This document shows positions 8,221 through 49,820 of a DNA stretch of 64,000 bases, in pieces. How positions within the stretch are numbered: position 1 is the first letter of the stretch; each line of letters opens with the position of its first letter. The position numbers and the translations under genes were made by a program. The notes beneath the pieces were generated by a model. It did no database searches. It saw only the letters and a program-made list of their open reading frames with translations, and had not been told where the DNA came from. Origin of the DNA: an uncultured Thermodesulfobacteriota bacterium (GTDB lineage: Bacteria > Desulfobacterota > WTBG01 > CAIYCZ01 > CAIRTM01); assembly GCA_964518865.1 (NCBI GenBank), contig CAZFIB010000003.1, positions 10,520 through 74,519 on the forward strand. Reading direction: 5' to 3'.

Positions 8221-8223
8221 GTT

Positions 8224-9345: not shown

Positions 9346-9348
9346 CTG

Positions 9349-9999: not shown

Positions 10000-10221
10000 A
10001 TGGAACCTCTCAAAAAAAATGAGTTGATAAATATCGTGATCAATACATGCCCAAAAAATACGACTTGACAGCAAAACAGCATGCGGAAACATCTGCTGTC
10101 TGTGAACACACTGCCCGGCCCCCCGTATGCAGGAGGGAGATCCGGCGATCATACCGCACACCCGCTTTTTAAAAGCGGTGCGTTCGCACAGGGCCCGTTC
10201 AGTCGTTCTATTAGTGCGGCA

Positions 10222-10701: not shown

Positions 10702-10780
10702 ACCTGTATACCTCCTTACTGCGTTATATGAAATGTATTAATTCTGTTTGCATATCACGAGTCGGCTAAAAAAACCGGCC

Positions 10781-17064: not shown

Positions 17065-17275
17065 GTACAGCTCTGGTGCCGAAAACGAACCTTCAGCTGC
17101 AGCGCACAAAGCCGGGCTGATCTCAGCGTGTCCGTCAATACTGATGTCATTCAGGTATCTGCCGGGCTCTCTGGGCAATTCACGGAAATTCATAGCCTGC
17201 CTGATCTTCAGATGTTTCCCGGACCCTGCGATCACGTCGCAGGGTGACATATCACCAAGAGCAATAAAGCGGGGC

Positions 17276-17395
17276 CAGAGCAATTTTCAATTTTTTGCAG
17301 CCGTTTTTTTGTCATTTCGACCGCAGGGGGAAATCGCTTCAGGAGCGTGCGCTTTCTCAGTCGCCGTGCTCCCTGAAAATGACAGAATGGCCTTG
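17276..17395 (-). repeat. structured ~110-nt intergenic repeat element, copy A
   Basis: Reverse complement is ~85% identical to copies at 43221-43330 and 48621-48740. It has nested inverted repeats (GTCATTTC.../...GAAATGAC) and a conserved flank 'CGGCTGCA...AAAATTGCTCTG'. Confidence 0.7.
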
Positions 17396-17483
17396 AGTAT
17401 TGTGAAAAATGGTTTAGTCCGGACGGTTTGAGCTGGTAACCGTGCCTGTTTTGTGTGATTTATACTGCATTATGATTGCACTG

Positions 17484-20531: not shown

Positions 20532-23500
20532 TTATCTGAAAAACAGCGGGACAAATATGATGACTGTTATTTCCTCATCACCGCCGTTCGACGTGACCGG
20601 CACAACCGCGCGGTGAAAGCCCGGCCGCAGGCTGCTTCGGTCGACACTGATCGTAATGGTTTCTTCACTCTCTTCACCGCTGACGGTACCGCTGTCTGAA
20701 TTGAAGCTTATCCAGTCGCTGCCGCGCCAGCCGTACTGAATGTCGCCGATACTCCACTCCAGAATACCGGTTCCCGCATTCTGAACTGCACACTGCGTTT
20801 CCGACACATTGCGGCGCATAAAGCAGAACGTCCGGCCGAGAGAAAGACGTGGCTCGCCCGTCGGAGGAGGTGCAGGTTCTTCCTCCTGGACGGTCAGAGT
20901 AACAGTTATATCCTTGCTGTCGGAGCCGTCTCGAAGTGCAAGTGTTATAATGGCATTGTATGTGCCCTGGTCCAAACCCTGACGGTCGACCGACACGGTC
21001 ATATCCATGCTGTCGCCCGGAGCAAGAGAGATGATGTTGGCATCCGTGCTGAGCCAGCCGCTGACGTCCGCGTACAGCGTTTCAACATACCAGGTCCCGT
21101 CCGCATCGCCCCGGTTCGTAACCGTAACCGTGGATTGCTCCTGCATCTCGAATGACGTGAATTCAAGGCTGCCTGAGCTGATCTCTACAGCCGGAGCAAG
21201 CGGAACATAGACATCACCCACACCAAGGCGCACGAGAACCGAGTCGGAGCCGCCGCTGGATGTTATGGGGAGATAGGCCTCGTAAATTCCCTCGCTCAAA
21301 CCGTCCCGGTTTACGTAGATGGTGACAATCTGCGTACCGGTACCGCTCGGGGGCTGAATCGACTCGATCCACCCGCTGCCGTCGAGGTACTGGGGGGTCC
21401 CGATGCTCCAGGTGAGGGTGCCGCCGCCGCTGTTGCCGATGGCGATAAAGCGGTCGTCGACGTCTTCAGGGAATCCGATATAGCCGTCCACATCTAGTAC
21501 CGGCGTCGTTGTGGAGCCGCCGCCTCCGCCGGTAGTGCCGCCACCGGTAGTGCCGGAATCGTCGTCATCGCCCGACGATGATCCTTCCATTGCGCCGGCA
21601 CCGAAGTAGGTTCCGCCGAGCTGTTCGATGGACGGGCTGCTGCTGTCTGTAATGACAACCTGCAGACAGTTGCCGACGCTTATTGCTGCCGGGTCGGTCG
21701 GTTTCCATTCGCCGGTATCACCGTTGAACCACATGACCGTATCGCCGCCGCTGCCGCAGATTTCGATTGTTATACTTGTCAACCCGTCAGGATCGGGGAC
21801 AAAAATATCGACATACTTTGCACCGGCCTTCAGCCCGCTGGACTTCCCGGTCGGTGTGCCGCTGTAGCTTGCAGCCATTATTTTGGCCGATCCCTCTACT
21901 TCAAGATTGACACCCGGCACCACGTCCGAGGCGCTGCTGCCGTTCATTTCCATCATGACAACCGAGCCTTCAAACGGACTTTCAAGGTGAGGAGAGAAGC
22001 AAACCAGGCCGCTGACGGATGCACCGCTGCCGGCAGCGGTTTTTCCCGCCGTGCAGTTGTCGGCCGTGTCGCCCGACGGACCGTCCTCAGCACCCCACCA
22101 GTTGTTGCGGGCATCCACGTGCTCGGTTCCGCTGTGCTCCAACCCAACCGGAACTGCAGGTTTGCATATATCCTCATTCTGGTCAGGATTGTACGTAGAC
22201 GGGCAGTTGTCGTCGTCATCCGCTATGCCGTCGCAGTCGGTATCATCAAGCGTAACCGTCTCTTCCTCGGGTGTTGACGGTATTGTTACGTTGCAGTTGC
22301 TGCCGCATGCATCGCCGATTCCGTCATCATCTGAATCCCGCTGATCGGGATTATAAACGTAAGGACAATTGTCATCACATGCTTCTGTCTCACCCTCCGC
22401 ACAGGCAACATCGCCGACGATACCGTTTTGGTCGCCGTCATCCGCTATGCCGTCGCAGTCGGTATCATCAAGCGTAACCGTCTCTTCCTCGGGTGTTGAC
22501 GGTATTGTCACTGTGCAGTTCTCCTGCACACCACCCTCCCCCGGAGTAAACTTGATGTTGTTGAAACTGATCTGCGTACCGTTGACATCATCGACGACAA
22601 AAGCTTTTTGATAGGTGCCGCTATCCATATCAATGGTCAGGCCGAGGATGGTGGCATTTTCCGCACGTATAGAAATCGCGGTGCTGTTCTCTGCAGGCAC
22701 ACCGTTTATAACCGGTGCAGCACCTTCGGCTGCCTTTATCGTCAGATTGGCAACATCAATCGCAAAACCGTCATAATCGCCGGTTTGAAGCTCAATAACC
22801 TTTTCTTCTTCGGGCGGAAGGGCGGCAAAAGCCGTAATGACATCGTTGATAGTTGCATACCCTGATCCGCCGCCCCCTGGACTGAAAAGAATGCTGTTGC
22901 TGTCATCACAGGTATCGCCGCGACCATCCTGGTCCGCATCATTTTGATCTTCGTTGTCCGTGTACGGACAGTTATCGCAGGCATCACCACGAGTGTCACC
23001 GTCACTGTTTGCCTGATCGCCATTTGCAATATCCGGACAGTTGTCACACGCATCACCGATAGTGTCATTATCAAAATCCAACTGATCGGCATTCGCGGTA
23101 TTCGGGCAATTGTCGCAGGCATCACCTACATCGTCACCGTCAAAGTCGGCCTGGGATGTATTGTTATCATACTGGCAGTTGTCGCACGCATCACCGATAG
23201 TGTCATTATCGAAATCCAACTGATCGGCATTCGCGGTATTCGGGCAATTGTCTTCTCCATCCTCAATACCGTCATTATCATCATCATCGTCACAGATATC
23301 GCCGATACCGTCGCCGTCGCTGTCACCGATATCGGGTGCAAATGAAGTAAATGCGGCGTCTTTGGCATAGGGATAAAAGCTCAGATTGGCGCTGACGCCC
23401 ATGACGGCAAGTTCACCGCCGGACCCGTCAGCAGCAGGGGTGCAGCCCAGAAAAGATTCGGAATTGTTAATTCCTCCTGACGGTCCGTCATCGGCTCCCC

Positions 23501-24254
23501 ACCAGTTATACCGCATATCTATGGCAGGCGGATTGTTTGTTGACAAATACTGCCCGAAAGCATGTCCCGCGTAATCAGGATTTCCTTCCCAGGCACTGCT
23601 GTTGTCGTTACCGCTCAAATCATTATATTGTATGAACAATTTCGGGACGTTACCGTAGACCCCGATCCCGCGGTGGTTGCCGGTAATACTGTTTTTCATA
23701 GAAATGTCGCCACCAATAAATATCCAGGACGAACTGGACCCGTTAATAAAAATACCGTAACCGTAGTCCGGGTGTTTGGTAGCATTATCTGGCGCAAAGC
23801 CGGCTATGGTATTATTTCTAATTGCAATGGAAGACCCGGAGTTGATAAAAATGCCGCAATCAGAACCGGTAATGGTAAAACCTTGGAGTGTTGTTAGACT
23901 TCCGGGAGGAGTCTGAATAAATACTGATGCGTATATATCAAGTATGTCAAGTGGAGAAATACCTGACTCGGGGGAAATCTGCTCTCCTTCGATAACCGGT
24001 GCAGCCCCGTCTGCAGCCTTGATGGTCAATCCCTGTTTCCAGATGATAAAACCGTCATAACTGCCGTCAGCCACCTCGATGGTAGAACCGGGGGCCGACA
24101 GATTTATCGCACTTTGAATGTCTAAAAAGTCGGCTGCACCTGTGGCGTTATCGTCATCCACCAGCAACGTGGCGGATTGCGCATTAGCATTAGAAATACA
24201 GACTGCATATGCCAGTAGTGCTATGAATAAACCGTGCATCCATGAAACTTTCAT
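20532..24254 (-). CDS. giant secreted Ca-binding surface protein
   Basis: Signal peptide (…ISNANAQS), then beta-helix modules with NWWG..DGPS motifs, then ~10 TSP3 repeats (DxDxDGxGDxCDNCPxxxNxDQ), then a Gly/Ser/Thr linker, then 3x DUF1573/BACON-like domains. Confidence 0.85.
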   Translation of the reverse strand: MKVSWMHGLFIALLAYAVCISNANAQSATLLVDDDNATGAADFLDIQSAINLSAPGSTIEVADGSYDGFIIWKQGLTIKAADGAAPVIEGEQISPESGISPLDILDIYASVFIQTPPGSLTTLQGFTITGSDCGIFINSGSSIAIRNNTIAGFAPDNATKHPDYGYGIFINGSSSSWIFIGGDISMKNSITGNHRGIGVYGNVPKLFIQYNDLSGNDNSSAWEGNPDYAGHAFGQYLSTNNPPAIDMRYNWWGADDGPSGGINNSESFLGCTPAADGSGGELAVMGVSANLSFYPYAKDAAFTSFAPDIGDSDGDGIGDICDDDDDNDGIEDGEDNCPNTANADQLDFDNDTIGDACDNCQYDNNTSQADFDGDDVGDACDNCPNTANADQLDFDNDTIGDACDNCPDIANGDQANSDGDTRGDACDNCPYTDNEDQNDADQDGRGDTCDDSNSILFSPGGGGSGYATINDVITAFAALPPEEEKVIELQTGDYDGFAIDVANLTIKAAEGAAPVINGVPAENSTAISIRAENATILGLTIDMDSGTYQKAFVVDDVNGTQISFNNIKFTPGEGGVQENCTVTIPSTPEEETVTLDDTDCDGIADDGDQNGIVGDVACAEGETEACDDNCPYVYNPDQRDSDDDGIGDACGSNCNVTIPSTPEEETVTLDDTDCDGIADDDDNCPSTYNPDQNEDICKPAVPVGLEHSGTEHVDARNNWWGAEDGPSGDTADNCTAGKTAAGSGASVSGLVCFSPHLESPFEGSVVMMEMNGSSASDVVPGVNLEVEGSAKIMAASYSGTPTGKSSGLKAGAKYVDIFVPDPDGLTSITIEICGSGGDTVMWFNGDTGEWKPTDPAAISVGNCLQVVITDSSSPSIEQLGGTYFGAGAMEGSSSGDDDDSGTTGGGTTGGGGGSTTTPVLDVDGYIGFPEDVDDRFIAIGNSGGGTLTWSIGTPQYLDGSGWIESIQPPSGTGTQIVTIYVNRDGLSEGIYEAYLPITSSGGSDSVLVRLGVGDVYVPLAPAVEISSGSLEFTSFEMQEQSTVTVTNRGDADGTWYVETLYADVSGWLSTDANIISLAPGDSMDMTVSVDRQGLDQGTYNAIITLALRDGSDSKDITVTLTVQEEEPAPPPTGEPRLSLGRTFCFMRRNVSETQCAVQNAGTGILEWSIGDIQYGWRGSDWISFNSDSGTVSGEESEETITISVDRSSLRPGFHRAVVPVTSNGGDEEITVIIFVPLFFR
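22211..22508 (-). repeat. intragenic near-identical ~78-bp direct repeats (2 copies, ~220 bp apart)
   Basis: The same 78-nt string (…gtcatccgctatgccgtcgcagtcggtatcatcaagcgtaaccgtctcttcctcgggtgttgacggtattgt) occurs at ~22211 and ~22431. It encodes NVTIPSTPEEETVTLDDTDCDGIADD twice. Confidence 0.85.
23043..23251 (-). repeat. intragenic near-identical ~72-bp direct repeats in TSP3 region (2 copies, ~137 bp apart)
   Basis: 70/72 identical copies at ~23043 and ~23180. They encode DNCPNTANADQLDFDNDTIGDACDNC. Confidence 0.85.
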
Positions 24255-24881: not shown

Positions 24882-25553
24882 TCAGAGGTTTTTGGCTGCC
24901 CACAGGGTGGCCTGCAGGCGGTTGGCAACATTGATCTTTTTATAGATATTGTAAAGATGTGTTTTGATAGTATGAGGACTGACACACAGCTTGTCGGCGA
25001 TTTCCTCATTCTTGCGTCCGATCGCCACGTGCGAAAGTATTTCTATTTCACGCTGCGTCAAAATTTTTCTGACTTTTATGCCGCTTATGTCCTCGTCGCG
25101 GTCTTCGAGAATATACCTGGTCATAACATCGCGGGTGAACCAGAGTTCCTGATTATATAAAGCCGTAATGCCCTTTATAAACAGGTCGGTGTCGGTATCC
25201 TGATAAAAAATACCCCGCACGCCATGTCCCATGCAGCTTTCTTCGATACCCAGTCCCGGCTTGACATTGAACAGCGCAACCACGGAGGCATCAGTCACTT
25301 CACAGATTGATGCAAGCAGGCCGGACATGAAATCGTCCATGGTCTTACCCATACAGTCCCAGAGATAAAGTTCGCTTTCAAACTGTTTTCTTTTTTCCTG
25401 GGATAGTACACTGATATCCTTGATACAGGTACATGACGCCCCTGTTTCAGTCTCGATAAGACTTCCGAGGGCCTGACTGCTCAAAATGTGTGCGCCTACG
25501 ATAAAAATGGTGTGTCCCGCCAGAACTTTGCCTGCCTGTACGTCGTTTTTCAT
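24882..25553 (-). CDS. CsgD-family transcriptional regulator (LuxR-type HTH)
   Basis: Alignable along its whole length with E. coli CsgD. This covers both the N-terminal receiver-like domain and the C-terminal LuxR HTH (LTQREIEILSHVAIGRKNEEIADKL…TIKTHLYNIYKKI). Confidence 0.8.
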   Translation of the reverse strand: MKNDVQAGKVLAGHTIFIVGAHILSSQALGSLIETETGASCTCIKDISVLSQEKRKQFESELYLWDCMGKTMDDFMSGLLASICEVTDASVVALFNVKPGLGIEESCMGHGVRGIFYQDTDTDLFIKGITALYNQELWFTRDVMTRYILEDRDEDISGIKVRKILTQREIEILSHVAIGRKNEEIADKLCVSPHTIKTHLYNIYKKINVANRLQATLWAAKNL

Positions 25554-27679: not shown

Positions 27680-27937
27680 AGCATGCCGGGGCATTCCAGT
27701 ACTCTGAAAAAACGGGATTCCTCAGCATTGTTTTTGCTCCGGCAGCAGGCCATGCCATAGCGTGCTGCAAAACTGCAGGAGCTGCTTTAGCTGCGATTTT
27801 TTCGCGGCCGGAGGCCGCTCTACCCGGCTGCACTATTTTGATACATGCTTTGGCGAAGACACCCGCCGAAGGTTTTGGTTTTAAATACATAAATAACTGG
27901 CGGCTCTTCGGCGCAATGCCTGTTTGAGCGCTCCGTC

Positions 27938-29290
27938 TCAGGACTCCTGCAGCAGTTGCTGCACGGCCGTCTCGACCTCCTGCCTGATCGCCTCGAGCCC
28001 CTTCTGCGTGTCCGCCTCAAAACGAAGCACAAGCACCGGCTGCGTGTTTGACGCCCGCACCAGCCCCCAGCCTCCCGGCATACAGATACGTGCCCCGTCG
28101 ATATCGATTATTGAATACTTAGGTCGAAACAGATTTTTAACGGATTCTATTATCTCAAACTTTCTCGAGTCGGGGCAGTCAATGCGGATCTCCGGGGTCG
28201 AGCAGGTTTGCGGCACATCCCGCAGCAGCCCGCTCAGGGGTCCTTCGGCTGCGGAGAGAATTTCAACCAGCCTGCAGGCTGCATACACGGCATCATCGAA
28301 ACCGAAATACCGGTCGGCGAAAAACATGTGGCCGCTCATCTCACCGGCAAGCACGGCACCGGTCTCCTTCATCTTGGCCTTGATGAGCGAATGGCCCGTC
28401 TTCCACATTATTGCCTTGCCGCCGCGCGACGCGACATCATTATAAAAATTCTGCGAACCCTTGACCTCGGAGATGAAGGTTGATCCGGGATGTCGCTTTA
28501 AAATATCCCGGGCAAAAAGAATCATCAGGTGGTCTCCCCATATGATCTTACCCCGTTCATCGACCACGCCGATCCTGTCGGCGTCACCATCGAACGCTAT
28601 TCCCATATCGGCGTCATTGCTGCGCACCGCTGCGATAAGATACTGAAGGTTGTCCGGGACCGTTGGGTCGGGATGATGGTTCGGAAAGTGCCCGTCCATT
28701 TCGCAGTACAGAGCGGTAACCTCGCAGCCCAGCCGCTGCAGCAGCGGCAGGACCGCCGGCCCGGCGGTTCCGTTACCGGCGTCTACGACAACCCGCAGCT
28801 TTCTGCCCGCGGATATGTTGCCGGCTATCCGGTCGATATATGCCGGCAGCACATCCACGGCCGTGCAGGAGCCCTCACCGGAGGAGTAAGAACCCTGCTG
28901 CATTATTTTTTGCAGACTCTGTATCTCGGCGCCGTGAATGGTCGTTTTTCCGCAACAGATCTTAAAGCCGTTGAATTCCGCAGGATTGTGGCTGCCGGTT
29001 ATCATGACGCCGCCGTTTTTTTCGAGGTGAAAAAGCGAAAAATACACAAGGGGGGTGTGACATGTTCCGATATCCGTCACCGCCATCCCGGTTTGCATGA
29101 GCCCCTGCAGCAGTGCTTTGAACAGGTCAGGCGATGACAGGCGGCAGTCCCTGCCGACAACCGCCTCACGGATATCGCGGCGCTGCAGGTAGGTGCCGAT
29201 TGCCCGTCCCAGATCGACAACCGTATTTTCATCAAGGTCCTCGCGCACCACCCCCCGAATGTCGTATTCACGAAATATGTGTTCATTCAT
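27938..29290 (-). CDS. phosphomannomutase/phosphoglucomutase (alpha-D-phosphohexomutase)
   Basis: 'FREYDIRGV' start and the 'TGSHNP' catalytic Ser loop. Start chosen at the internal ATG with a GAGGGA RBS (MNEHIF…). Confidence 0.85.
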   Translation of the reverse strand: MNEHIFREYDIRGVVREDLDENTVVDLGRAIGTYLQRRDIREAVVGRDCRLSSPDLFKALLQGLMQTGMAVTDIGTCHTPLVYFSLFHLEKNGGVMITGSHNPAEFNGFKICCGKTTIHGAEIQSLQKIMQQGSYSSGEGSCTAVDVLPAYIDRIAGNISAGRKLRVVVDAGNGTAGPAVLPLLQRLGCEVTALYCEMDGHFPNHHPDPTVPDNLQYLIAAVRSNDADMGIAFDGDADRIGVVDERGKIIWGDHLMILFARDILKRHPGSTFISEVKGSQNFYNDVASRGGKAIMWKTGHSLIKAKMKETGAVLAGEMSGHMFFADRYFGFDDAVYAACRLVEILSAAEGPLSGLLRDVPQTCSTPEIRIDCPDSRKFEIIESVKNLFRPKYSIIDIDGARICMPGGWGLVRASNTQPVLVLRFEADTQKGLEAIRQEVETAVQQLLQES

Positions 29291-29364
29291 AAAAAATCCC
29301 TCGTTTGCACCCTCCGGCCGGTTCAAAAGCCGACGCGACGGAGCGCAGCGCGCCAAAGGCGCTT

Positions 29365-29841
29365 TTAAAGATCGTAAAGAGTTTCATCCCGCTGCGGTTC
29401 TTTTTTGTGCCTGCCCTTTTTGCCGCCGAGCTCGAAGGGATCTTCGCTTTCGAGAACATCGCCCAGCTCTGCTTCGATTGCTTCCGGGTCTTCGCCGGAC
29501 TCCATCCGGGAAAGGGCCTCCTCCATACCGCTGCCGAGCTTCATGCCCGTCATGTCTGAAAATTTACGCATCAGGTTTGCCGCCTGGCGCGGATCATCCT
29601 CATTCAGTCCTTCCGCTTCAGCGGCAAGCTTTCCGATAGCGCCTTCCAGCCTGGATTCATCAAACGGCAGGTCGTCGGGCCCCTCTTCACGGGCCCTGCC
29701 GATGCAGGAAAACACCGAGGCCTGCCGCTGCAGCCTGCGCTTACAGCGCGGACAGGCCGGCTTTTTGGTCACGTTTATCGTACGTGAAAAAAAATTAAAA
29801 ATGGTATTGCAGTGCTTGCAGTAAAACTCATAAATGGGCAC
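29365..29841 (-). CDS. FmdB-family zinc-ribbon protein with acidic C-terminal tail
   Basis: 'MPIYEFYCKHCNTIF…CPRCK' CxxC…CxxC zinc ribbon, followed by an acidic, low-complexity tail. Confidence 0.6.
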   Translation of the reverse strand: MPIYEFYCKHCNTIFNFFSRTINVTKKPACPRCKRRLQRQASVFSCIGRAREEGPDDLPFDESRLEGAIGKLAAEAEGLNEDDPRQAANLMRKFSDMTGMKLGSGMEEALSRMESGEDPEAIEAELGDVLESEDPFELGGKKGRHKKEPQRDETLYDL

Positions 29842-29911
29842 GCCGGCATCCTCCCTGCAAGATGGGTCTGCGTCTGAATAACAGCACCATGACAGATTTT
29901 TCCGAATCTTT

Positions 29912-40421: not shown

Positions 40422-41014
40422 GCCGGGTGCCTCCGCTGCGGAAACGGATTTCGCCTGCCCGCAATAATCTCCTGGAGTTTCAATATGCCCTCTATCAGCC
40501 CTTCCGGCCGCGGCGGACAGCCCGGCACATAGACATCAACCGGTATCAGCCTGTCGACCCCCTCTATGACATAGTAGTTTCCTTCACCGGCAAACGGCCC
40601 GCCGGAAACCGCGCAATTGCCCAGAGCGATAACCCACTTGGGGTACGGCATCTGCTGGTACAGGGTAATGACCGACTCTGCCATCTTTTTGTTGACCGTG
40701 CCGGCCACGATCATAAGGTCTGCCTGTCGCGGCGAAGGCCGAAACACTTCGGCACCGTAGCGGGAAAGGTCAAAGCGGGCCATGCCCGCGCTCATCATCT
40801 CGATGGCACAGCACGACAGACCGAATGTCAAAGGCCACAGGGAGTTGGCGCGGCAGAGATTCTGCAGCTTTTCGCTGAGCCGCATGCGTCCGAGCACGCC
40901 GGCCTGCTGCAGCTCCTGCCCCTCTTCAAACTTTGAGCGCAGGCGGGAGGCAAACTCGTTGATGTCTAATAAATCTTTTTTTCGCTGCTCCAGAGAAAGA
41001 CTCCTTTCCTCCAT
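40418..41014 (-). CDS. nuoB: NADH-quinone oxidoreductase subunit B (20 kDa, N2 cluster)
   Basis: '[17 protein letters not shown]', '[10 protein letters not shown]' and '[10 protein letters not shown]' cysteine motifs. The exact start is uncertain (overlaps nuoA). Confidence 0.85.
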
Positions 41015-41361
41015 GCATATACCAGCCCCAGTGACAGAATGCCCAGGAACAGAACAAAAGCCGTTATGCCGCGAACCCGTTCGACCGCGTCAAAGGCGGC
41101 CGCAACGGGATACAGATAGAGAACATCAACCTCGAATGCCAGAAATATGAGGGCGTATAAATAATAGGCTATGCCGTGGCGAAAGTCCCACGACTGTCCG
41201 AAGGGCACGATCCCGCACTCATACGTCTGCAGCATGGCTGGCGAAATTCGTGCCGCAGGGCGCAGAAGGCGGGAGGCAAGAAACGGCAGACATGCAGCTG
41301 CAATACCGCTGCCCGCAAACAGGCTGATGTAAATGTATGCTCTGAGGTCTGCAAATTCCAT
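40966..41361 (-). CDS. nuoA: NADH-quinone oxidoreductase subunit A
   Basis: Start chosen at the internal ATG giving ~131 aa and 3 TM. 'YECGIVPFG' is the NuoA motif. The upstream extension lacks homology. Confidence 0.8.
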
Positions 41362-41636: not shown

Positions 41637-43148
41637 CTAAACGGATTCACTGTCAAGAGCTGTGGGCTCCTGCGGTTTTTCTCTGCCTGATATCAGCCGA
41701 AACACAGCCCCTGCGCACAGCACGAGAAAAGGCGCATCAACCGGCAGGCGGAATCGGTTGTTCTCCCCGAATTCGATCAGCGATGATACCGACAGCACAT
41801 ACACGTGAACCAGCAGGCAGAGCAGCAGCACCGGCACGGCTGCGTCACCTGATGTTTTTCTGCGCAGTGCGGCATAAAGCGCTCCGGCATAGGCGGCAAG
41901 CAGCACTGCGCTCATACATGCCGTGCGAATCCACACGCCCGGCACCTCGTGCTTGCTTCGCACACCCAGAAAGCCGAAATGCAGAAAGCGGTACACCTTT
42001 TCCATGCCGCTCAGCAGTTCCATATGTTTTTCAAACAGACCGTGCACCGAATCGGATGAATGCCAGAGCGTCAGGCTGTAGGAGCCCAGCGTGTAAAAGG
42101 CGAACAGCCCCGGGTCATGACGGATAAGGCGCAGTGCATCCCGGCCGAGCTGACGCGAAAGCCGTACATAGCCGATATGATTGAAGTTCGGCTTGCCGCT
42201 GCTTTTCCACTCGGCGCAGTCCGCTTGATGATGGCACGGCATAGCTTCCAGCTCGACCCCGCTGTAAAACCTGCTGATCGGCACAAATGCCTGCAGTTGG
42301 GCCCGGCAGGCAAGCCTGCTGACGGTCCCCCGCTCGTACAGAGCCTCAATCCGCTCAGGGGGCAGACCGTTCGCCTTGGTCCACAGGCTCATACCGGTCC
42401 ATGAGGATGTTCCGAAAAAGCCGAAAATTAACAGATTTTTGCAGCAGACAAGCCCGAGGGGAACAAGCGCGACAAGCGAAAACCGCAGCATCCGCGCGGC
42501 GTCGGCGCGCTGCCTGCGCACAAAAAGCAAATAGGCCCATAAAAGTCCGGCAGCTGCAGGAAAAAACACCGGATGAAACAGCGATCGAACCAGACCCAGA
42601 CATCCAAGCGCAGCCCAGAAAAGAAACAGGGGAAGCCGTGTGCCCGAACAGCTCCACCAGGAGAGAAAAAACACAGCCGCGATGACAAGAAACACCTCAC
42701 AGTACGTGTAGTAAAGAAGGTGTTCATAAAGCAGCAGACTCGGGTTCAGCATAAAAACAAGTGTCAGCACAAAAGACACCGGGCGCCGGACACCCACCAG
42801 CACGAGGCTGCCGAACAGCAGAAGCGGTATTAGAGCACCCCAGGTTGTAAAGCATATGTTGAAGGTGAGGCTCGGGTCCGGTGATATTTTCAGCGCAGTG
42901 CCGAGAAACAGGTTGAAACACGGCGGCTGGCTGTGAAGATAGAAAAGCCCCTCGAGCAGATCGTTTCGAAGTACCGTCGGATCAAGGTATTGTTTCGCAA
43001 AGCCGATGGGGCTGTCGAGAAACTTACCTCCGGCCCGGTAAAATACAATCCTGCTGAGTGCAAAAACGAACAGCAGCACAAGGCCGTAGCCCGGTTCGCG
43101 AAGAAGCAGTATGCGGTCTGATTTCTCTTTCGGATTAACAGCATTCAT
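41637..43148 (-). CDS. polytopic membrane protein, possible GT-C-like glycosyltransferase paralog
   Basis: 503 aa with ~9 N-terminal TM helices and acidic/PP motifs in the first loop (…LDPTVLRNDLLEGLFYLHSQPP…). It is distantly similar to the protein at 45620-47257. Confidence 0.4.
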   Translation of the reverse strand: MNAVNPKEKSDRILLLREPGYGLVLLFVFALSRIVFYRAGGKFLDSPIGFAKQYLDPTVLRNDLLEGLFYLHSQPPCFNLFLGTALKISPDPSLTFNICFTTWGALIPLLLFGSLVLVGVRRPVSFVLTLVFMLNPSLLLYEHLLYYTYCEVFLVIAAVFFLSWWSCSGTRLPLFLFWAALGCLGLVRSLFHPVFFPAAAGLLWAYLLFVRRQRADAARMLRFSLVALVPLGLVCCKNLLIFGFFGTSSWTGMSLWTKANGLPPERIEALYERGTVSRLACRAQLQAFVPISRFYSGVELEAMPCHHQADCAEWKSSGKPNFNHIGYVRLSRQLGRDALRLIRHDPGLFAFYTLGSYSLTLWHSSDSVHGLFEKHMELLSGMEKVYRFLHFGFLGVRSKHEVPGVWIRTACMSAVLLAAYAGALYAALRRKTSGDAAVPVLLLCLLVHVYVLSVSSLIEFGENNRFRLPVDAPFLVLCAGAVFRLISGREKPQEPTALDSESV

Positions 43149-43220
43149 GCTGATCCACTTCTCGACCCGGGAACGGACGAAAAATACATACTAAAGAATT
43201 ATTCACAATACGTATAGCCA

Positions 43221-43330
43221 CTCTGTCATTTCGAAGGAGCACGGCGACTGAGAAATCTCACGCCCCTGAAGAGATTTCTCCCTGCGGTCGAAATGACAAA
43301 AAACAGACGGCTGCAGAATAAAGGGGTCTG
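43221..43330 (+). repeat. structured ~110-nt intergenic repeat element, copy B (best-preserved)
   Basis: GTCATTTCGA[…]GAGAAATCTC[loop]GAGATTTCTC[…]TCGAAATGAC followed by AAAAAACAGACGGCTGCAG. Confidence 0.7.
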
Positions 43331-43539
43331 CTTTAAAACGCTAAACTGATTATTACATACTTACTATGGAATTACAAAGGCTTATATGGTCAGGCAGGCA
43401 TGCCGTTCCCTCTCTCAAGGCAGATACTGCATCATGCTGCTCTGCGTACTTAAGGCGGGTTCCGGCTCTTTTTTTTAGATAATATGAAATGCACAAAAGG
43501 TGTCTGATCAAAGAAGGGTAACGGGTCGAGCAAGGTCAG

Positions 43540-44628
43540 CTAATGCGCGTGGTCGGTACTGTGCCGGTCGGCAATCAAGTCATTCGAGGGAGGCACCGGC
43601 CCGCTCACCCCTCTGTTGCGGCCCTGATGCTTGGCCTGATATAAATATGTATCGGCGGCATGAATAAGGCTGTCAAACAGGGTATCGCTGTCTTCCGTTA
43701 TGAGGTCGAATCCGGCAATGCCGTAGCTTGACGTAACGACGATCGAATGCTGTTTCACGGCAACAACCATGTTCGAGAGATTCTCCTGAAGGCGCTCTAC
43801 CATCCGGCAGGCCCGGTCAATTCCGGTAGCGGGCAATACGATCAGAAATTCCTCGCCGCCGAACCGGGCGATCCAGTCGACATTTTGCCTGATCGTCTGT
43901 CGTATGCAGGCAACAAACGCCTGCAGAACTGTATCGCCCGCCTGGTGGCCGTAGGTATCGTTGACTTTCTTGAAATGATCGATATCGCACAGCACAATAG
44001 ACAGAGGCGACCCGTACCGCTTTGCGCGCTTGAGCTCCCCAGGTAAAAATTCATTGATATATGCCCTGTTATAACAGCCGGTCAGGCTGTCGGTAATGGA
44101 AAGAAGCTGTATTTTTTCATTCGCCTTCTTGCGTTTTTTGACTTCGCGCTGCAGCCTGATATTGGCCATTTCAGCTTTCAGCGCCATTTCGTTTGCCCGC
44201 TCGATGGCGGACTCAAGCTGCTCGTTCATCATTCTGAACTTGTGAAGGATTTCCCGCTCCCGTTTTATTCTGACAATTCGTGCTTTCAGCTCCTTTATCT
44301 CAAAAGGCTTGACCATGTAGTCTGCGGCGCCGGCCTCGATTATGTCGACATACGGGTAGTCGGAGGCATAACCGGTCATGATAATGAAATCAAGTTCCGG
44401 AAATGTTCTTTTTGTTTCCTTCATGAACTGAAGGCCGTCCTTAACCGGCATTTCAATATCAGACAGAACAAGGTCGAAACGGTGTTGTGCAAGATGCCGG
44501 TCAGCTTCTGCCGGGTCGAGAGCGGTTGTACATGAGTAACCCTCTCCCGTGAGATTGCTGTGAAGAAAATCGAGCATCGCTTCGTCATCATCGACAACGA
44601 GAATGTTTTTCAGGGAGGCCATTTCCAT
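43540..44628 (-). CDS. response regulator receiver-GGDEF diguanylate cyclase
   Basis: REC domain (ILVVDDDEAM…LSDIEMP), then a coiled coil, then a GGDEF domain with an intact 'RFGGEEF' motif. Start chosen at the internal ATG (MEMASLKN…). Confidence 0.85.
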   Translation of the reverse strand: MEMASLKNILVVDDDEAMLDFLHSNLTGEGYSCTTALDPAEADRHLAQHRFDLVLSDIEMPVKDGLQFMKETKRTFPELDFIIMTGYASDYPYVDIIEAGAADYMVKPFEIKELKARIVRIKREREILHKFRMMNEQLESAIERANEMALKAEMANIRLQREVKKRKKANEKIQLLSITDSLTGCYNRAYINEFLPGELKRAKRYGSPLSIVLCDIDHFKKVNDTYGHQAGDTVLQAFVACIRQTIRQNVDWIARFGGEEFLIVLPATGIDRACRMVERLQENLSNMVVAVKQHSIVVTSSYGIAGFDLITEDSDTLFDSLIHAADTYLYQAKHQGRNRGVSGPVPPSNDLIADRHSTDHAH

Positions 44629-44862
44629 AGCGGTATACGTTCGCCGGCATGCACTGTTCTTCGGTACGGGCGCCATTCTGATGCATGGCAACGTGTCTGG
44701 AAATAGTATCGGTCGGAAGAGATCAGCAATTGATTGATAATGTACTGTTTAACGCTTTTTTAATCATTTTTTTAAAAACTATGCCCCGGCACCTGTTCAC
44801 AGCGGAAAATCGGAAATTATACATGCGATTATCGAAAAAAGCCGGGAGGGGGTCGGCACAGG

Positions 44863-45540
44863 CTATTCGTCATATCTTTCAGGCAGCATTCCGTTTGAGG
44901 ACGGGGCAATAGGGCTTTTGCACTTCACGATATAGTGACAAAGGTCTTCGATTTTGTGGACGGTTGAGAAGTGAAACCTTTTTTCCAGCATATTGAAAAA
45001 CACATGCGAATTGTCAAGCCATTTAAAGTAGGTTTCACCCTCTTCAATAAGTGCTGCGTTACGCAGCTGCACCAGGGGCGGAATAATGTTTACCAGCGGA
45101 GAGAGCAGCACAACGTGATACAGGTCACGAAACCAGGTTTTGCGGGGCTCTATAAAACAGAAATAGCCCTCCGGCTTGAGCAGCCGTTTGACCTCAGTGA
45201 TTAACGGGTCGAGGTCGAGGAAATGATGCAGCGCCTTGTGTATGATAATAGCGTCAAAAATGTCTTCCCTGAAGGGGCAATGGTTTGCATCTGCCTGAAC
45301 AAGCGGAATGTTGTTTTTTGCGCGTTTCAAAAGGTTATTTGAAACATCCAGACCGGTAAGGTTGCGGTATCCGGCCCGCCTGAAAACATCAAGGGTGCCC
45401 CCGTTTCCGCAGCAGAGATCAAGTATACGGGAATCATGGTGCAGGTTCCACTTTTTCATTACCTTGGCGAACTTACCCGGGTTGGTAACGATCCGGACAA
45501 GCCTCAGGTAGGTTTGCTCCCATTCCTCCGAGCATATCAT
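44863..45540 (-). CDS. class I SAM-dependent methyltransferase
   Basis: Motif I 'ILDLCCGNGGT' and an acidic loop 'LTGLDVS'. Confidence 0.8.
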   Translation of the reverse strand: MICSEEWEQTYLRLVRIVTNPGKFAKVMKKWNLHHDSRILDLCCGNGGTLDVFRRAGYRNLTGLDVSNNLLKRAKNNIPLVQADANHCPFREDIFDAIIIHKALHHFLDLDPLITEVKRLLKPEGYFCFIEPRKTWFRDLYHVVLLSPLVNIIPPLVQLRNAALIEEGETYFKWLDNSHVFFNMLEKRFHFSTVHKIEDLCHYIVKCKSPIAPSSNGMLPERYDE

Positions 45541-45619
45541 AATGCACTCTGCCGCATGTCAACGTAGTACTGGTTTCTGGCAATACATACTACATTTGAT
45601 TAGGAAATGAAATAAAAAG

Positions 45620-47257
45620 CTATCGTTCGGCGTGCGGATCCTTTGGAAGGAGAACAATTTCCGGCCGTGTCATAAACCCTGTCGGGTTTCTGAAAACATC
45701 TTCACCCTGGTAGTCTATCCGGCGGGCAGGGTAATAATGCCGTTCGATTGCACGGGAGAGCGGCTCGTCGCTTTCCAGCAGAAGATCAACATTTTTAAAG
45801 GCATACCGCTTTTCCATATGCGTATAGTAGCTTGTATCGTCGATAATAATCGCTGCGAAGTGATGGTTTGATATTTTTGCAATGAGATCATTCGGCACAA
45901 ATCCTTCCGGTGAAAGAATTTGATAGCCCCAGAATGCACCGGCATTAAAAATCATATCTTTTCCGGCCATAACAGCATACATTGAATGATAGGGAATATA
46001 CACCTCTCCGGGCAGCTCGCGGACCATTTCCATAAACCGGTTTCCCGCTTCAGTCGAGCCCGGGGCCGGTATGACACTTTTAGGATCATACAGCTGCAAA
46101 GCAAGCTGTACGGCCAGCAAACCATACAGCACTGAGCCCGCCACACAGCGAAGCCGTACGGAGCGAAGCGCTTGAACGCGTCCAAGCAGCATGCCCAGCA
46201 GAACCGCACCCCAGATTGTCAGGTACATAAAATCGTTTTTCTCTGAGCCGACGTTCGGCCTGATCATGCAATACGATACGACAGCGGCACCGGCGGTATA
46301 CTCCCATACCGAATAGTCGGAAGGCTTTCTGCGTGTCACCAGGGAACACACGACGAAGGCAAGCAAAAGGGAAAAAAATATCGGCAGGCGGTAGCAGATT
46401 TCATAGCGGATTTCCGCCGGCAGCTTGCTTTTGATATCCATAATAAGATCGTAGTAAAGATTGGGCATTGAGGATGCCACACTGTCCGAGTAGCGCAGGG
46501 GATTGAGAAGCGTGTAAACGGCAAACCAGCCGTCGGTGACGGCGGTCAGCACCAGAAAAACTGCGACAACAGCGCCGAGCGTTGCAGCGGTAAACACGAA
46601 CGCCTTTTTGCGGTCCACACTCAAAAGATACAGCCCTGCAAAGGGCACATACACCAGCGCCGACTGCTTTGTGAAGCAGGCCAGCACAAAAAAACCGACA
46701 GCTGCCGGCAGCCAGCGGCTTCGGCTGCTGTAGTTGCCAACCGCCAGGCAGCCGCCCAGAAGCAGCAGAAAAAAAACCATGTCAACCCGCCCCACGTCAT
46801 ACCAGGGGCCGTGCAAATGATAAAAGCTCACAAACATGCTGCAGCTCACAAAGGCGGCTGCCGCACCGGCCCCCTGTGACCGAACGATGCGGTAGATAAC
46901 AGCTATAATACCCGCGCAGGCTGCAAGAGAAACCAGGCGCTGACTGAAAAAGGAAACCCCCAAAAGCCTGGCGGCCGCAGCCACGACGACATAATATACC
47001 GGCGGATACAGCTCGGCGACCAGCTCGGTTGACGGTGCAGCATACACAGGCTCGCCATCCATAAGCCGGATGACATGACACAGCAGTTCTCCCTCGAGCC
47101 ACTCAAGCTCAAACGGGTACATCAGGCGCACGAGAGCACAGTACAGAAAACAAAGCCAGAATACCGCCAGCAGTACACAGACAGCTGTCCATGCGGCATT
47201 GTAAAAACCTCGCGCGGCTGACAGGCCTGTTGGATGTGTTGCCGGTGCAGTTCCCAT
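45620..47257 (-). CDS. GT-C-fold (ArnT/PMT-like) membrane glycosyltransferase candidate
   Basis: 545 aa with ~11-12 TM helices and a C-terminal soluble domain. The acidic first loop (ELEWLEGE…ELYPP) resembles the GT-C catalytic loop. Confidence 0.55.
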   Translation of the reverse strand: MGTAPATHPTGLSAARGFYNAAWTAVCVLLAVFWLCFLYCALVRLMYPFELEWLEGELLCHVIRLMDGEPVYAAPSTELVAELYPPVYYVVVAAAARLLGVSFFSQRLVSLAACAGIIAVIYRIVRSQGAGAAAAFVSCSMFVSFYHLHGPWYDVGRVDMVFFLLLLGGCLAVGNYSSRSRWLPAAVGFFVLACFTKQSALVYVPFAGLYLLSVDRKKAFVFTAATLGAVVAVFLVLTAVTDGWFAVYTLLNPLRYSDSVASSMPNLYYDLIMDIKSKLPAEIRYEICYRLPIFFSLLLAFVVCSLVTRRKPSDYSVWEYTAGAAVVSYCMIRPNVGSEKNDFMYLTIWGAVLLGMLLGRVQALRSVRLRCVAGSVLYGLLAVQLALQLYDPKSVIPAPGSTEAGNRFMEMVRELPGEVYIPYHSMYAVMAGKDMIFNAGAFWGYQILSPEGFVPNDLIAKISNHHFAAIIIDDTSYYTHMEKRYAFKNVDLLLESDEPLSRAIERHYYPARRIDYQGEDVFRNPTGFMTRPEIVLLPKDPHAER

Positions 47258-48593: not shown

Positions 48594-48620
48594 AGCATTT
48601 TTCACGCTGCTGCAGTCCTT

Positions 48621-48740
48621 CCGTCATTTTTAAGCAGCACAGCGACTGAGAAATCTCAAGCAAATGAATATATTTCTCTCCCTTCGGTCGAAACAACAAA
48701 AAAAGACGGCTGCAGAAAACAGAAAATTGCTCTGTCCTCC
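48621..48740 (+). repeat. structured ~110-nt intergenic repeat element, copy C (partly degenerate outer stem)
   Basis: Alignable with copy B throughout. It shares 'GACGGCTGCAGAAAACAGAAAATTGCTCTG' with the reverse complement of copy A. Confidence 0.65.
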
Positions 48741-48878: not shown

Positions 48879-49820
48879 ATGGGTATCAAAATGACAACGG
48901 CTGAAATCGTGAAGGCCACGGGAGGAAGGCTTGCAACCGGTTTTGCGCTTTCCATGATTCAATCCCTGTGCACAGACCCGGCCCGGGTTGAAGACGGCGC
49001 GTTGTTTATACCACTGGAAACCAGTGGTCTGCAGCATTCGGTCGACCGGGCCTTCCGTTGCGGCGCCATAACGGCGCTGGTTCCCGGCTCCGACACTGCA
49101 TGTGCCGCCACGCTGAAAAAACATCCGAAAAAAATTATTATCGAAATCGATGACCCGCACAGAGCTGTCGGTGAGATCGCCCGCTACTGGCGGCAGCAGT
49201 TACGGATTCCGATCGCACTGATTGTCGGGGCCGAAAAAGCCGCTGCCGTCAGGCACATCTCCTGGAGCATTACCCGTACCATGCTCGGAAGCCGCACAGT
49301 TGAAAACAACGACAGCCCTTTGTCAACAGCGTTGTTTCTGGCTGATTTAAATGCAGATTCCCGGGCGGCAATTATCGATGCCGGAACAATGAATGAAGCC
49401 GATCTCATGCGGTGCTTTGATATCTGCGTTCCCGATATCGGCATGGTAACCGATTCCGAACCGGCGCAAAGCCGGATGCATACGGCATTTATGCAGCGTT
49501 TTGAAAAAGACACAATTATCATCTGCAACAATGACGACCGCCGGGCTCTGAAAAGTGCAGAAAAAGCATCTGCCCGCACAATTTCATTCGGTACGAAAAA
49601 AGCCGATATACATGCCTCGTCGACAAAGCATGCAAAAAGCGGTATCGTCTCTTTTGACCTGCACCTGCCCGATAACGCTGTACAGCTTCGCATGACGCTG
49701 CCTGCCGGCATCGACCTGAGCTGCATTCTGGCAGCAGCTGCCCTGGCACACGGCTTCGGTCTTACCGCCGAAGCGGTTAAACAGGGGCTCGAAAATCTGC
49801 AGAACCATCAGGTTTCCTGA
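48879..49820 (+). CDS. Mur-ligase (MurF-like) N-terminal/central-domain protein lacking P-loop
   Basis: AAGGAG RBS. The N-terminus 'VKATGGRLATG…DPARVEDGALFIPL…GAITALV' resembles the MurF N-terminal domain. The expected GxxGKT/S position reads 'GAEKAAAV', and at 313 aa the protein is too short for a full ligase. Confidence 0.45.
   Translation: MGIKMTTAEIVKATGGRLATGFALSMIQSLCTDPARVEDGALFIPLETSGLQHSVDRAFRCGAITALVPGSDTACAATLKKHPKKIIIEIDDPHRAVGEIARYWRQQLRIPIALIVGAEKAAAVRHISWSITRTMLGSRTVENNDSPLSTALFLADLNADSRAAIIDAGTMNEADLMRCFDICVPDIGMVTDSEPAQSRMHTAFMQRFEKDTIIICNNDDRRALKSAEKASARTISFGTKKADIHASSTKHAKSGIVSFDLHLPDNAVQLRMTLPAGIDLSCILAAAALAHGFGLTAEAVKQGLENLQNHQVS

What the first reader, a model, noticed from the sequence alone, without database searches (positions are those of the whole stretch)
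41637..47257. Envelope-modification cluster: two paralogous GT-C-like polytopic membrane proteins, a REC-GGDEF cyclase and a SAM methyltransferase
The two large membrane proteins share an acidic first-loop motif (…LLEG…PP) typical of GT-C glycosyltransferases such as ArnT and PMT. Between them sit an active diguanylate cyclase response regulator and a methyltransferase. Repeat-element copy B lies in the leader of the first. This may be a second c-di-GMP-linked module glycosylating lipid or protein substrates of the envelope, possibly the giant proteins.
Basis: inference. Interest (0 to 1): 0.5.

Follow-up and report, generated by a model that had tools for sequence, protein, structure and literature searches.

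The report
Two unrelated GT-C glycosyltransferases, chance neighbours
The four genes are real and both membrane proteins are predicted lipid-linked-sugar (GT-C) glycosyltransferases, but they are not paralogs, and comparison with about 130 related loci shows that only one of them plus the methyltransferase forms a conserved unit, so this is ordinary envelope-glycosylation equipment and not a c-di-GMP-controlled module.

Summary
Four co-directional minus-strand genes are confirmed. They are MP2 (45620-47257, 545 aa), a class I SAM methyltransferase (44863-45540), a REC-coiled-coil-GGDEF cyclase (43540-44628) and MP1 (41637-43148, 503 aa).

The two proteins are not paralogs. BLASTP gives E 0.046 and profile-profile comparison gives 0.6% probability. 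The shared "LLEG" motif is coincidental: that Glu is variable in the MP1 family, whose conserved acids are D56 and D63, while MP2 has an invariant E55.

Synteny rejects a four-gene module. None of 39 genome loci holding MP1 relatives has MP2, the methyltransferase or a REC-GGDEF within 10 kb. None of 80 MP2 loci has MP1 or an orthologous REC-GGDEF cyclase.

The one conserved unit is MP2 plus an adjacent methyltransferase or methyltransferase-like gene, found in every informative ortholog locus. MP1 belongs to a large GT-C family (3027 clusters) with no dedicated curated model. Substrates are unknown. No c-di-GMP receptor domain, donor synthase or flippase was found nearby.

The parts
45620..47257 (-). 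MP2: 545-aa GT-C fold glycosyltransferase of the PMT_2 (ArnT/GT39-like) type, with a C-terminal extracytoplasmic alpha/beta domain (about residues 400-545).
44863..45540 (-). Class I SAM-dependent methyltransferase, 225 aa, soluble, 79 nt downstream of MP2. It is the conserved partner of MP2.
   Evidence: Methyltransf_11 scores 1.9e-20. Motif I is ILDLCCGNGG, read from the sequence. No hydrophobic segment was found. Orthologs at 55-67% identity lie directly downstream of an MP2 ortholog in L005, L047/L048, L127, L128 and L129.
43540..44628 (-). Orphan response-regulator diguanylate cyclase: REC, coiled-coil linker, GGDEF (362 aa from the ATG at 44628; the ORF extends to a TTG at 44691).
   Evidence: GGDEF scores 1.1e-43 and Response_reg 5.4e-24. 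It resembles PleD and DgcR but falls below the equivalog cut-offs. The sequence shows the REC residues DD, D (LVLSDIEMP), T and K, the GGEEF motif, and QNVD where the RxxD I-site would be. The 362-aa form is the one in the public (NCBI-sourced) record. It is not found next to MP1 or MP2 relatives elsewhere.
41637..43148 (-). MP1: 503-aa GT-C fold membrane protein from a large family that has no dedicated curated model. Family signature residues are D56, HSQPP (72-76), E142 and E-x-G-E-N-N-R-F-R (459-467).
43190..43303 (-). Copy B of an intergenic hairpin repeat of about 115-145 nt, in the 391-nt gap between the cyclase and MP1.
   Evidence: It is 86% complementary to 17305-17418 over 114 nt, and a third copy lies at 48619-48737. 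The RNA fold is -48.8 kcal/mol with z = -3.0. No Rfam family matches.

Best explanation
The region is a lineage-specific juxtaposition of three independent units, not one module.

(1) MP2 plus the methyltransferase is a conserved two-gene cassette, separated here by a 79-nt gap. MP2 is a PMT_2/ArnT-like GT-C enzyme. Inference: it takes a sugar from a polyprenyl-phosphate-linked donor at the outer face of the inner membrane and transfers it to an envelope acceptor (lipid A or LPS, another glycan, or a protein). Residues E52/E55 in the first loop and D154/R157/D159/K197 would form the active site. The soluble cytoplasmic methyltransferase most likely methylates the donor sugar or its precursor before it is flipped. 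This is inferred by analogy with AglP and AglB in Haloferax N-glycosylation, which I recall from memory and did not test.

(2) The REC-GGDEF protein is a stand-alone, phosphorylation-activated diguanylate cyclase. It has an intact A-site and a degenerate I-site, sits behind a 234-nt gap, and feeds the cellular c-di-GMP pool.

(3) MP1 is a second, evolutionarily separate GT-C enzyme. It is a stand-alone gene in nearly all relatives. It probably also uses a lipid-linked donor, with D56 and E142 as catalytic or metal-binding residues. Its acceptor is unknown.

Shown here: the folds, the conserved residues, and the presence or absence of synteny. Inferred: donor, acceptor, the role of the methyltransferase, and the transcription units.
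For: Fold:
- MP2 passes the Pfam PMT_2 cut-off.

Catalytic hallmarks:
- MP1 D56 is present in 36 of 36 close relatives and in at least 90% of the wider family. E142 is invariant.
- MP2 E55 is present in 32 of 32.

Independence of MP1 and MP2:
- BLASTP E 0.046 and hhalign probability 0.6%.

No four-gene module:
- None of 39 GTDB loci with MP1 relatives has MP2, the methyltransferase or a REC-GGDEF within 10 kb. Only 1 of 39 keeps nuo downstream.
- No neighbour family recurs in more than 4 loci.
- 80 MP2 loci contain no MP1 and no orthologous cyclase.

Conserved pair:
- All methyltransferase orthologs with readable context sit directly downstream of an MP2 ortholog, inside otherwise unrelated neighbourhoods.
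- The remaining MP2 orthologs have a protein of about 245 aa with a GxGxG motif directly upstream. It gives sub-threshold Methyltransf_25 hits.

General GT-C properties (7-13 TM helices, an extracytoplasmic domain after TM1, lipid-linked donors) are as described in PMC11127046.
Against: - No donor-synthase (GT2 or GtrB-like) or flippase gene was found in any scanned ORF of the window. Donor and acceptor are therefore pure inference.
- The four genes are co-directional, so read-through transcription cannot be excluded. Lineage-specific co-regulation by the cyclase cannot be excluded either.
- The 'type II' upstream methyltransferase-like proteins are below the Pfam cut-off (21.6-25.3 bits against 27). 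They show no detectable homology to the window methyltransferase, so the generality of the pairing rests partly on weak hits.
- All relatives come from uncultured MAGs or metagenomes, and none is characterised.
Confidence: 0.72

Rival explanations
1. The four genes form one c-di-GMP-linked envelope-modification module. The cyclase controls two GT-C enzymes and a methyltransferase that glycosylate lipids or proteins, possibly the giant proteins at 13.3-17.1 kb and 20.5-24.3 kb.
For: - The four genes are co-directional and adjacent.
- Both membrane proteins are GT-C.
- The cyclase looks catalytically competent (and the sequence).
- The window also holds a VpsT/LuxR-like regulator, a Wzy_C-TPR protein and two proteins of about 1250 aa.
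Against: - No relative of MP1 or MP2 in 119 scanned loci has an orthologous REC-GGDEF nearby, and MP1 and MP2 never co-occur.
- The gaps of 234 nt and 391 nt suggest separate promoters.
- Neither GT-C matches any Pfam c-di-GMP receptor domain such as PilZ.
- From my own knowledge, not tested here: known c-di-GMP-controlled glycan synthases are GT2 enzymes, not GT-C.
Confidence: 0.08
2. The juxtaposition arose by rearrangement or insertion mediated by the hairpin repeat. Copies B (43190-43303) and C (48619-48737) lie in the same orientation. They bracket a 5.4-kb segment that carries the cyclase, the methyltransferase, MP2 and the DUF4114 protein. That segment was placed next to an ancestral MP1-nuo arrangement.
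For: - Direct repeat D4 is 81% identical over 59 nt at 43222-43280 and 48620-48678.
- The relative that keeps MP1 upstream of nuo (L025) has none of the four bracketed genes (cyclase, methyltransferase, MP2, DUF4114) within 10 kb upstream of MP1.
Against: - Only three copies were seen, and all could be ordinary intergenic REP-like elements.
- Per-gene GC and GC3 show no sharp compositional boundary.
- No transposase or integrase is present in the segment.
- This explanation is compatible with the best explanation and does not replace it.
Confidence: 0.1
3. MP1 has a GT-C fold but is not a glycosyltransferase. It could be a non-catalytic scaffold, like the GPI-transamidase subunits PIG-U and GAB1, or it could transfer a non-sugar group.
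For: - The window protein matches no curated GT family model.
- It has no conserved glycan-pathway neighbours.
Against: - D56 is present in 36 of 36 close relatives and in at least 90% of the wider family, and E142 is invariant. Both, with the HSQPP motif, lie where GT-C active sites lie.
- The best structural matches are catalytic enzymes (ArnT, Pmt4, Pmt2, AglB).
- Eleven of 36 relatives weakly match Pfam PMT.
Confidence: 0.1

Closest known systems
ArnT (GT83, undecaprenyl-phosphate-L-Ara4N:lipid A transferase; PDB 5f15)
   Different: Sequence identity is 11-12%. There is no hit to any ArnT model in NCBIfam and no PDB sequence or profile hit. No arn-type partner genes (ArnA, B, C, D, E, F) were found in the window. 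MP2 is paired with a methyltransferase instead.
Protein O-mannosyltransferases (PMT, GT39; yeast Pmt1/2/4, actinobacterial Pmt) and TMEM260
   Different: The window protein itself does not match the PMT model. From the sequence, it has no MIR or TPR domain, and loop 1 has no adjacent Asp-Glu pair (D56-P57 and D63-L64 instead).
Three-component periplasmic glycosylation systems (GtrA/GtrB/Gtr*; ORF15/14/12 of Citrobacter youngae, GT136; PMC11127046)
   Same: A GT-C enzyme acts outside the cytoplasm with a polyprenyl-phosphate sugar donor. This is the mechanism inferred here for both proteins.
   Different: In those systems the donor synthase and flippase are encoded with the GT-C. Neither is present in this cluster or in the scanned ORFs of the window.
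AglP/AglB of Haloferax volcanii N-glycosylation (recalled from memory, not tested)
   Same: A soluble SAM methyltransferase modifies a lipid-linked sugar that a GT-C enzyme then transfers. This is a precedent for the conserved MP2-methyltransferase pair.
   Different: It is an archaeal oligosaccharyltransferase pathway with many further genes. No sequence relationship was tested or is claimed.
PleD / WspR / DgcR response-regulator diguanylate cyclases
   Same: The protein has a REC domain with all phospho-acceptor residues, a coiled-coil linker (as I recall for WspR), and a GGDEF domain with GGEEF. It scores 225 bits to the PleD model and 195 bits to DgcR.
   Different: The scores are far below the equivalog cut-offs (474 and 500). 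It has one REC domain where PleD has two. The RxxD I-site reads QNVD. No cognate kinase is adjacent.

Membership tests
GT-C fold glycosyltransferases (MP1) | Polytopic membrane core (7-13 TM helices) with an extracytoplasmic domain after TM1 (definition as in PMC11127046) | tested here: met
   The AF2 model (pLDDT 85.8) has about 12 long helices and a 50-residue loop with short helices after TM1. Hydropathy finds at least 9 strong segments.
GT-C fold glycosyltransferases (MP1) | Structural similarity to solved GT-C enzymes that exceeds similarity to other folds | tested here: met
GT-C fold glycosyltransferases (MP1) | Conserved acidic residue in the first extracytoplasmic loop | tested here: met
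   D56 is present in 36 of 36 and D63 in 35 of 36 close relatives. D56 is present in at least 90% of 38 sequences at 26-31% identity.
GT-C fold glycosyltransferases (MP1) | Match to a curated GT-C sequence family (Pfam PMT, PMT_2 or others; NCBIfam) | tested here: not met
   The window protein has 0 Pfam and 0 NCBIfam families. None of 38 wider-family members hits NCBIfam. Only 11 of 36 hit PMT weakly and 1 of 10 distant members passes PMT_2.
GT-C fold glycosyltransferases (MP1 and MP2) | Transfers a sugar from a polyprenyl-phosphate-linked donor | not testable with these tools
   This needs biochemistry.
Pfam PMT_2 / ArnT-like GT-C (MP2) | Score above the family gathering threshold | tested here: met
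ArnT proper (lipid A L-Ara4N transferase, GT83) (MP2) | Equivalog-level sequence match, and arn pathway genes (ArnA-F) nearby | tested here: not met
   There is no ArnT model hit in NCBIfam and no PDB sequence hit to ArnT. No arn-like genes are among the scanned ORFs.
Paralogous pair (MP1 and MP2) | Detectable sequence or profile homology between the two | tested here: not met
   BLASTP E 0.046 over 31 hydrophobic residues. hhalign probability 0.6%. The two share only the fold.
Three-component periplasmic glycosylation system | Polyprenyl-phosphate sugar synthase (GT2) and flippase encoded with the GT-C | tested here: not met
   The gene gaps in 41.6-47.6 kb are 79-391 nt, with no room for extra genes. 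No GT2, GtrA or MATE was found in the scanned window ORFs. A GT2 lies next to one MP2 ortholog only, in L007.
c-di-GMP-regulated glycan-synthesis module (Bcs/Pel/Alg-type logic) | A c-di-GMP receptor domain in or beside the glycosyltransferase, and a conserved association with a cyclase | tested here: not met
   MP1, MP2 and the methyltransferase match no Pfam c-di-GMP receptor domain such as PilZ. No orthologous REC-GGDEF lies near any of the 119 related loci scanned.
Active REC-GGDEF diguanylate cyclase (PleD/WspR type) | REC phospho-acceptor residues and a GG(D/E)EF A-site | tested here: met
   The sequence shows VVDDDE, LVLSDIEMP, IIMTGY, MVKPF, DIDHFKKVND and RFGGEEF.
Active REC-GGDEF diguanylate cyclase (PleD/WspR type) | RxxD allosteric I-site five residues upstream of GGEEF | tested here: not met
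   The sequence reads R-Q-N-V-D-WIARF-GGEEF. The aligned tetrad is QNVD, with the Arg shifted by one position. This is read from the sequence using the PleD register from memory.
Class I SAM-dependent methyltransferase | Rossmann-type methyltransferase domain with motif I (D/E-x-G-x-G-x-G) | tested here: met
   Methyltransf_11 scores 73.8 bits against 21.2, and Methyltransf_25 scores 64 against 27. Motif I is LDLCCGNGG. It is not an equivalog of UbiE, BioC or DVU_1556.

The most novel reading that the evidence does not exclude
MP1 represents a large GT-C family that is essentially undescribed. The family has 3027 clusters at 50% identity and 1263 of them score E <= 1e-30. Its signature is D56, HSQPP, E142 and GENNRFR. 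It has no dedicated curated Pfam or NCBIfam model and no solved or characterised member. If confirmed it would found a new CAZy family with an unknown donor and acceptor. In addition, the strictly conserved MP2 + methyltransferase cassette would define a new two-gene route for adding a methylated sugar to the envelope of Desulfobacterota.
Probability: 0.4. Interest if true: 0.45.

Novelty: new member of a known kind. Interest (0 to 1): 0.3.

Why it matters
GT-C enzymes build or decorate lipid A, O-antigens, cell-wall glycans and glycoproteins. Many bacterial GT-C families still have no known substrate.

This analysis assigns a fold and candidate catalytic residues to a widespread family that is annotated only as 'hypothetical' (MP1). 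It also identifies a strictly conserved GT-C + methyltransferase gene pair (MP2) that could be tested directly by knockout and glycolipid or glycoprotein mass spectrometry.

It also removes a tempting but unsupported idea: that a neighbouring diguanylate cyclase marks a c-di-GMP-regulated periplasmic glycosylation system. Such a system would have been new for GT-C enzymes.

Tried and rejected
- Sequence and profile searches of both membrane proteins against all PDB chains found nothing useful.
- hhalign of the MP1 and MP2 families found no homology.
- hhalign of the two methyltransferase(-like) families that flank MP2 orthologs found no homology, but both alignments are shallow, with Neff about 2.
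- An Rfam scan of the whole window at gathering thresholds gave 0 hits. The repeat and the long leaders are therefore not a curated RNA family such as a c-di-GMP riboswitch.
- The promoter and terminator consensus scan was uninformative within the cluster. It gave one strong sigma-70-like site upstream of nuoA.
- A functional link between MP1 and the nuo operon immediately downstream was considered and rejected. Only 1 of 39 genome loci keeps nuo downstream of an MP1 relative.
- A search for conserved neighbours of MP1 found none shared by more than 4 of about 37 loci.
- Horizontal acquisition judged by GC content showed no clear boundary.
- Literature searches for the run accession and for a GT-C/cyclase/methyltransferase combination found nothing relevant.
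- The organism could not be named. All close relatives are uncultured Thermodesulfobacteriota or 'Deltaproteobacteria' MAGs.


Full report
**1. What is there**

The interval 41637-47257 holds four co-directional minus-strand genes:
- MP2, 45620-47257, 545 aa.
- A 225-aa methyltransferase, 44863-45540.
- A REC-GGDEF protein. The ORF runs 43540-44691 from a TTG. The form in the public (NCBI-sourced) record starts at the ATG at 44628 and gives 362 aa.
- MP1, 41637-43148, 503 aa.

The intergenic gaps are 79 nt (MP2 to methyltransferase), 234 nt (methyltransferase to cyclase), 391 nt (cyclase to MP1) and 275 nt (MP1 to nuoA). Downstream on the same strand lies an 11-subunit-type nuo operon. Upstream, and divergent, lies a DUF4114-like protein.

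All four proteins have strong homologs, so the ORFs are real genes. The best relatives are all from uncultured Thermodesulfobacteriota or 'Deltaproteobacteria' MAGs.

**2. The two membrane proteins: fold**

MP2 passes the Pfam PMT_2 threshold (30.8 against 26.1 bits). MP1 matches nothing in Pfam or NCBIfam. Neither hits any PDB sequence, alone or as a profile.

AlphaFold2 models were built from alignments of 36 and 32 homologs. Both are confident: pLDDT 85.8 with pTM 0.88, and pLDDT 91.5 with pTM 0.91.

Foldseek for MP1 has weak E-values (best 9.5e-3). It ranks ArnT, Pmt, ALG9 and PglB with probability 0.9-1.0, and MATE, MFS and RND transporters with probability below 0.1.

Both proteins are GT-C fold proteins. 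This fits the description of the class in PMC11127046: 7-13 TM helices, an extracytoplasmic domain after TM1, and lipid-linked donors.

**3. Not paralogs, and the motif**

BLASTP between MP1 and MP2 finds only a 31-residue hydrophobic stretch at E 0.046. Profile-profile comparison of the two families gives 0.6% probability.

Column counts show that the 'LLEG' of MP1 is not conserved. The E is Q/R/A/K/E and the G is normally S. The conserved acids of loop 1 in MP1 are D56 (36 of 36) and D63 (35 of 36).

In MP2, E52 (E or D), W53 and E55 (32 of 32) are conserved. The 'PP' is conserved in each family separately. In MP1 it is H72-S-Q74-P75-P76, invariant even at 26-31% identity. In MP2 it is Y84-P85-P86.

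The literal shared motif and the paralogy are not.

**4. The MP1 family**

A profile search of 1.84 billion cluster representatives finds 3027 clusters at E <= 1e-3 and 1263 at E <= 1e-30. Most are 470-510 aa and align over their full length.

- Of 10 distant representatives, one passes PMT_2 and the rest have no significant Pfam match.
- None of 38 family members hits NCBIfam.
- Eleven of 36 close relatives weakly hit Pfam PMT, best E 1.7e-6.
- Family-wide invariant residues are L64, H72, Q74, P75, P76, N79, P136, E142, Y147, G252, N321, E462 and R465. D56 is present in at least 90%.

This is a large GT-C family, distantly related to PMT, with no dedicated curated model.

**5. Is it a module? 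Synteny**

For MP1, 39 loci from GTDB species representatives were examined, with up to 10 kb on each side.
- None carries an MP2-family gene, an ortholog of the methyltransferase, or a REC-GGDEF. The only hits to the cyclase query are REC domains of other regulators.
- Only L025 keeps nuo downstream. Two further metagenomic loci agree.
- Clustering of all neighbours finds no family shared by more than 4 loci.
- One four-locus group has a carbamoyltransferase-like ORF and a different 600-aa ORF, TM-rich with a DED motif in its first loop, upstream of MP1. Both assignments are read from the translated sequence only.

For MP2, 80 metagenomic loci were examined. None contains MP1 or an orthologous cyclase.

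**6. The one conserved pair**

Every ortholog of the window methyltransferase with readable context lies directly downstream of an MP2 ortholog, co-directional with a gap of about 25-80 nt. The surrounding neighbourhoods are otherwise unrelated. This holds for 7 loci:
- L005 (which has an extra methyltransferase in between), L047 and L048.
- L127, L128 and L129. L130 agrees but the contig is cut.

Only 10 such orthologs (55-67% identity) were found in 5.8 billion proteins.

The other MP2 orthologs are L004 (same contig as L052), L006, L007, L050, L051, L053, L054, L055, L057 and L058. Each has a conserved protein of about 245 aa directly upstream.
- It carries the motif E-[ML]-G-A-G-M-G-R-F.
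- It gives sub-threshold Methyltransf_25 hits (21.6-25.3 bits against a cut-off of 27; E 2.6e-5 to 3.5e-4).
- Its best PDB hit is a SAM methyltransferase at E 0.12.

The two methyltransferase(-like) families show no detectable mutual homology with the shallow alignments available. All informative MP2-ortholog loci therefore pair the GT-C with a class I methyltransferase or methyltransferase-like gene. L049 and L056 lack enough flank to judge. This pair is the only conserved functional unit in the finding.

**7. The cyclase and the methyltransferase**

The cyclase has a complete REC domain. The sequence shows the acidic pair in VVDDDE, the phospho-acceptor in LVLSDIEMP, T in IIMTGY and K in MVKPF. 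A coiled-coil linker of about 60 residues follows. The GGDEF domain carries DIDHFKKVND, GGEEF and YQAKHQGRN (sequence).

It resembles PleD, DgcR and SiaD but scores far below the equivalog cut-offs. The I-site position reads QNVD where RxxD is expected, using the PleD register from memory. 'Active diguanylate cyclase response regulator' is a fair reading. No kinase is adjacent.

The methyltransferase is soluble. It is a generic class I enzyme and not an equivalog of UbiE, BioC or the DVU_1556 family.

**8. Mechanism (inferred)**

MP2 and MP1 each probably transfer a sugar from a polyprenyl-phosphate donor to an envelope acceptor on the periplasmic side. The conserved loop-1 acids would act as base or metal ligands.

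The cytoplasmic methyltransferase partnered with MP2 most plausibly methylates the donor sugar or its precursor before flipping. The precedent recalled from memory is AglP and AglB.

The donor synthase and flippase typical of three-component systems (PMC11127046) are absent from the cluster and from the scanned ORFs of the window. They must be encoded elsewhere.

Nothing supports c-di-GMP control. No receptor domain was found, and there is no conserved association with a cyclase. From my own knowledge, there is also no precedent among GT-C enzymes.

**9. The repeat**

Copies A (17273-17418) and C (48619-48737) are 76-87% similar to it.

The element folds into a long imperfect hairpin of -48.8 kcal/mol, z = -3.0. 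It matches no Rfam family.

Copies B and C are in direct orientation. They bracket the 5.4-kb segment that carries the cyclase, the methyltransferase, MP2 and the DUF4114 gene. This might explain how the genes came to lie beside MP1-nuo, but that is speculation.

**10. Verdict**

The fold and enzyme classes are right. Paralogy, the shared motif and the integrated c-di-GMP module are not supported.

On novelty, both proteins are new members of a known kind (GT-C glycosyltransferases). The modest points of interest are the large MP1 family with no dedicated curated model, and the strictly conserved GT-C + methyltransferase cassette.

Noticed in passing
window 17273-17418 (+), 43190-43303 (-), 48619-48737 (-): Three copies of an intergenic hairpin repeat of about 115-145 nt, 76-87% similar, with no Rfam match. 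Copies B and C are in direct orientation and bracket the 5.4-kb segment carrying the cyclase, the methyltransferase, MP2 and the DUF4114 gene. It is possibly a REP- or MITE-like element. Its spread in other genomes was not examined.
   Followed up: partly
L004 7218-7946, L006 7171-7941, L007 7182-7922, and L050, L051, L053-L055, L057, L058: In a second group of MP2 orthologs, the partner gene is a conserved protein of about 245 aa directly upstream. It has the motif E[ML]GAGMGRF and only sub-threshold Methyltransf_25 hits. It is probably a divergent methyltransferase family that Pfam does not capture.
   Followed up: partly
L014, L017, L019, L029 (upstream of the MP1 relatives): In four related MAG loci, the MP1 homolog is preceded by a carbamoyltransferase-like ORF (NodU/CmcH type, judged from its sequence) and another TM-rich ORF of about 600 aa with a 'DEDIY' first-loop motif that looks GT-C-like. 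Neither ORF was scanned against Pfam.
   Followed up: no
L004 1-6514 and L006 1-6520: Some MP2 orthologs lie just downstream of a cluster of three ketoacyl synthases, a ketoreductase, an ACP and a FabA/ApeI-like dehydratase (an aryl-polyene or lipid-type cluster). An inositol monophosphatase-family gene lies downstream, adjacent to MP2 in L006 and two genes away in L004.
   Followed up: no
window 13312-17064 (+) and 20532-24254 (-): There are two proteins of about 1250 aa. The first has no Pfam match at all. The second has thrombospondin type 3 repeats and a BACON_2 domain. Between them lie a Wzy_C (O-antigen-ligase-like) + TPR protein (17484-19340) and a BamB/PQQ_2 beta-propeller protein (19344-20375).
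   Followed up: no
window 24882-25553 (-): A LuxR/GerE regulator with a weak VpsT-like receiver domain (23.5 bits, below the cut-off of 27) lies in a low-GC stretch (0.44). From my own knowledge, VpsT-type regulators can bind c-di-GMP. This was not tested.
   Followed up: no
window about 27900-41361 (-): In the nuo operon, nuoD is followed directly by nuoH, with no nuoE, F or G. The operon also contains several antiporter-like subunits (495, 588 and 503 aa) and an 81-aa ORF. This is the 11-subunit-type complex I.
   Followed up: no
window 48879-49820 (+): A MurF-like protein of only 313 aa covers positions 2-284 of the 418-position murF model (83.9 bits, far below the cut-off of 288.6). It appears to lack the C-terminal domain. 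A homolog lies 4.5 kb upstream of the MP1 relative in L015.
   Followed up: no
window 3996-12748 (-): A V/A-type ATPase operon (subunits I, E, C/AC39, A, B and D) lies next to a peptide deformylase and a methionine aminopeptidase.
   Followed up: no
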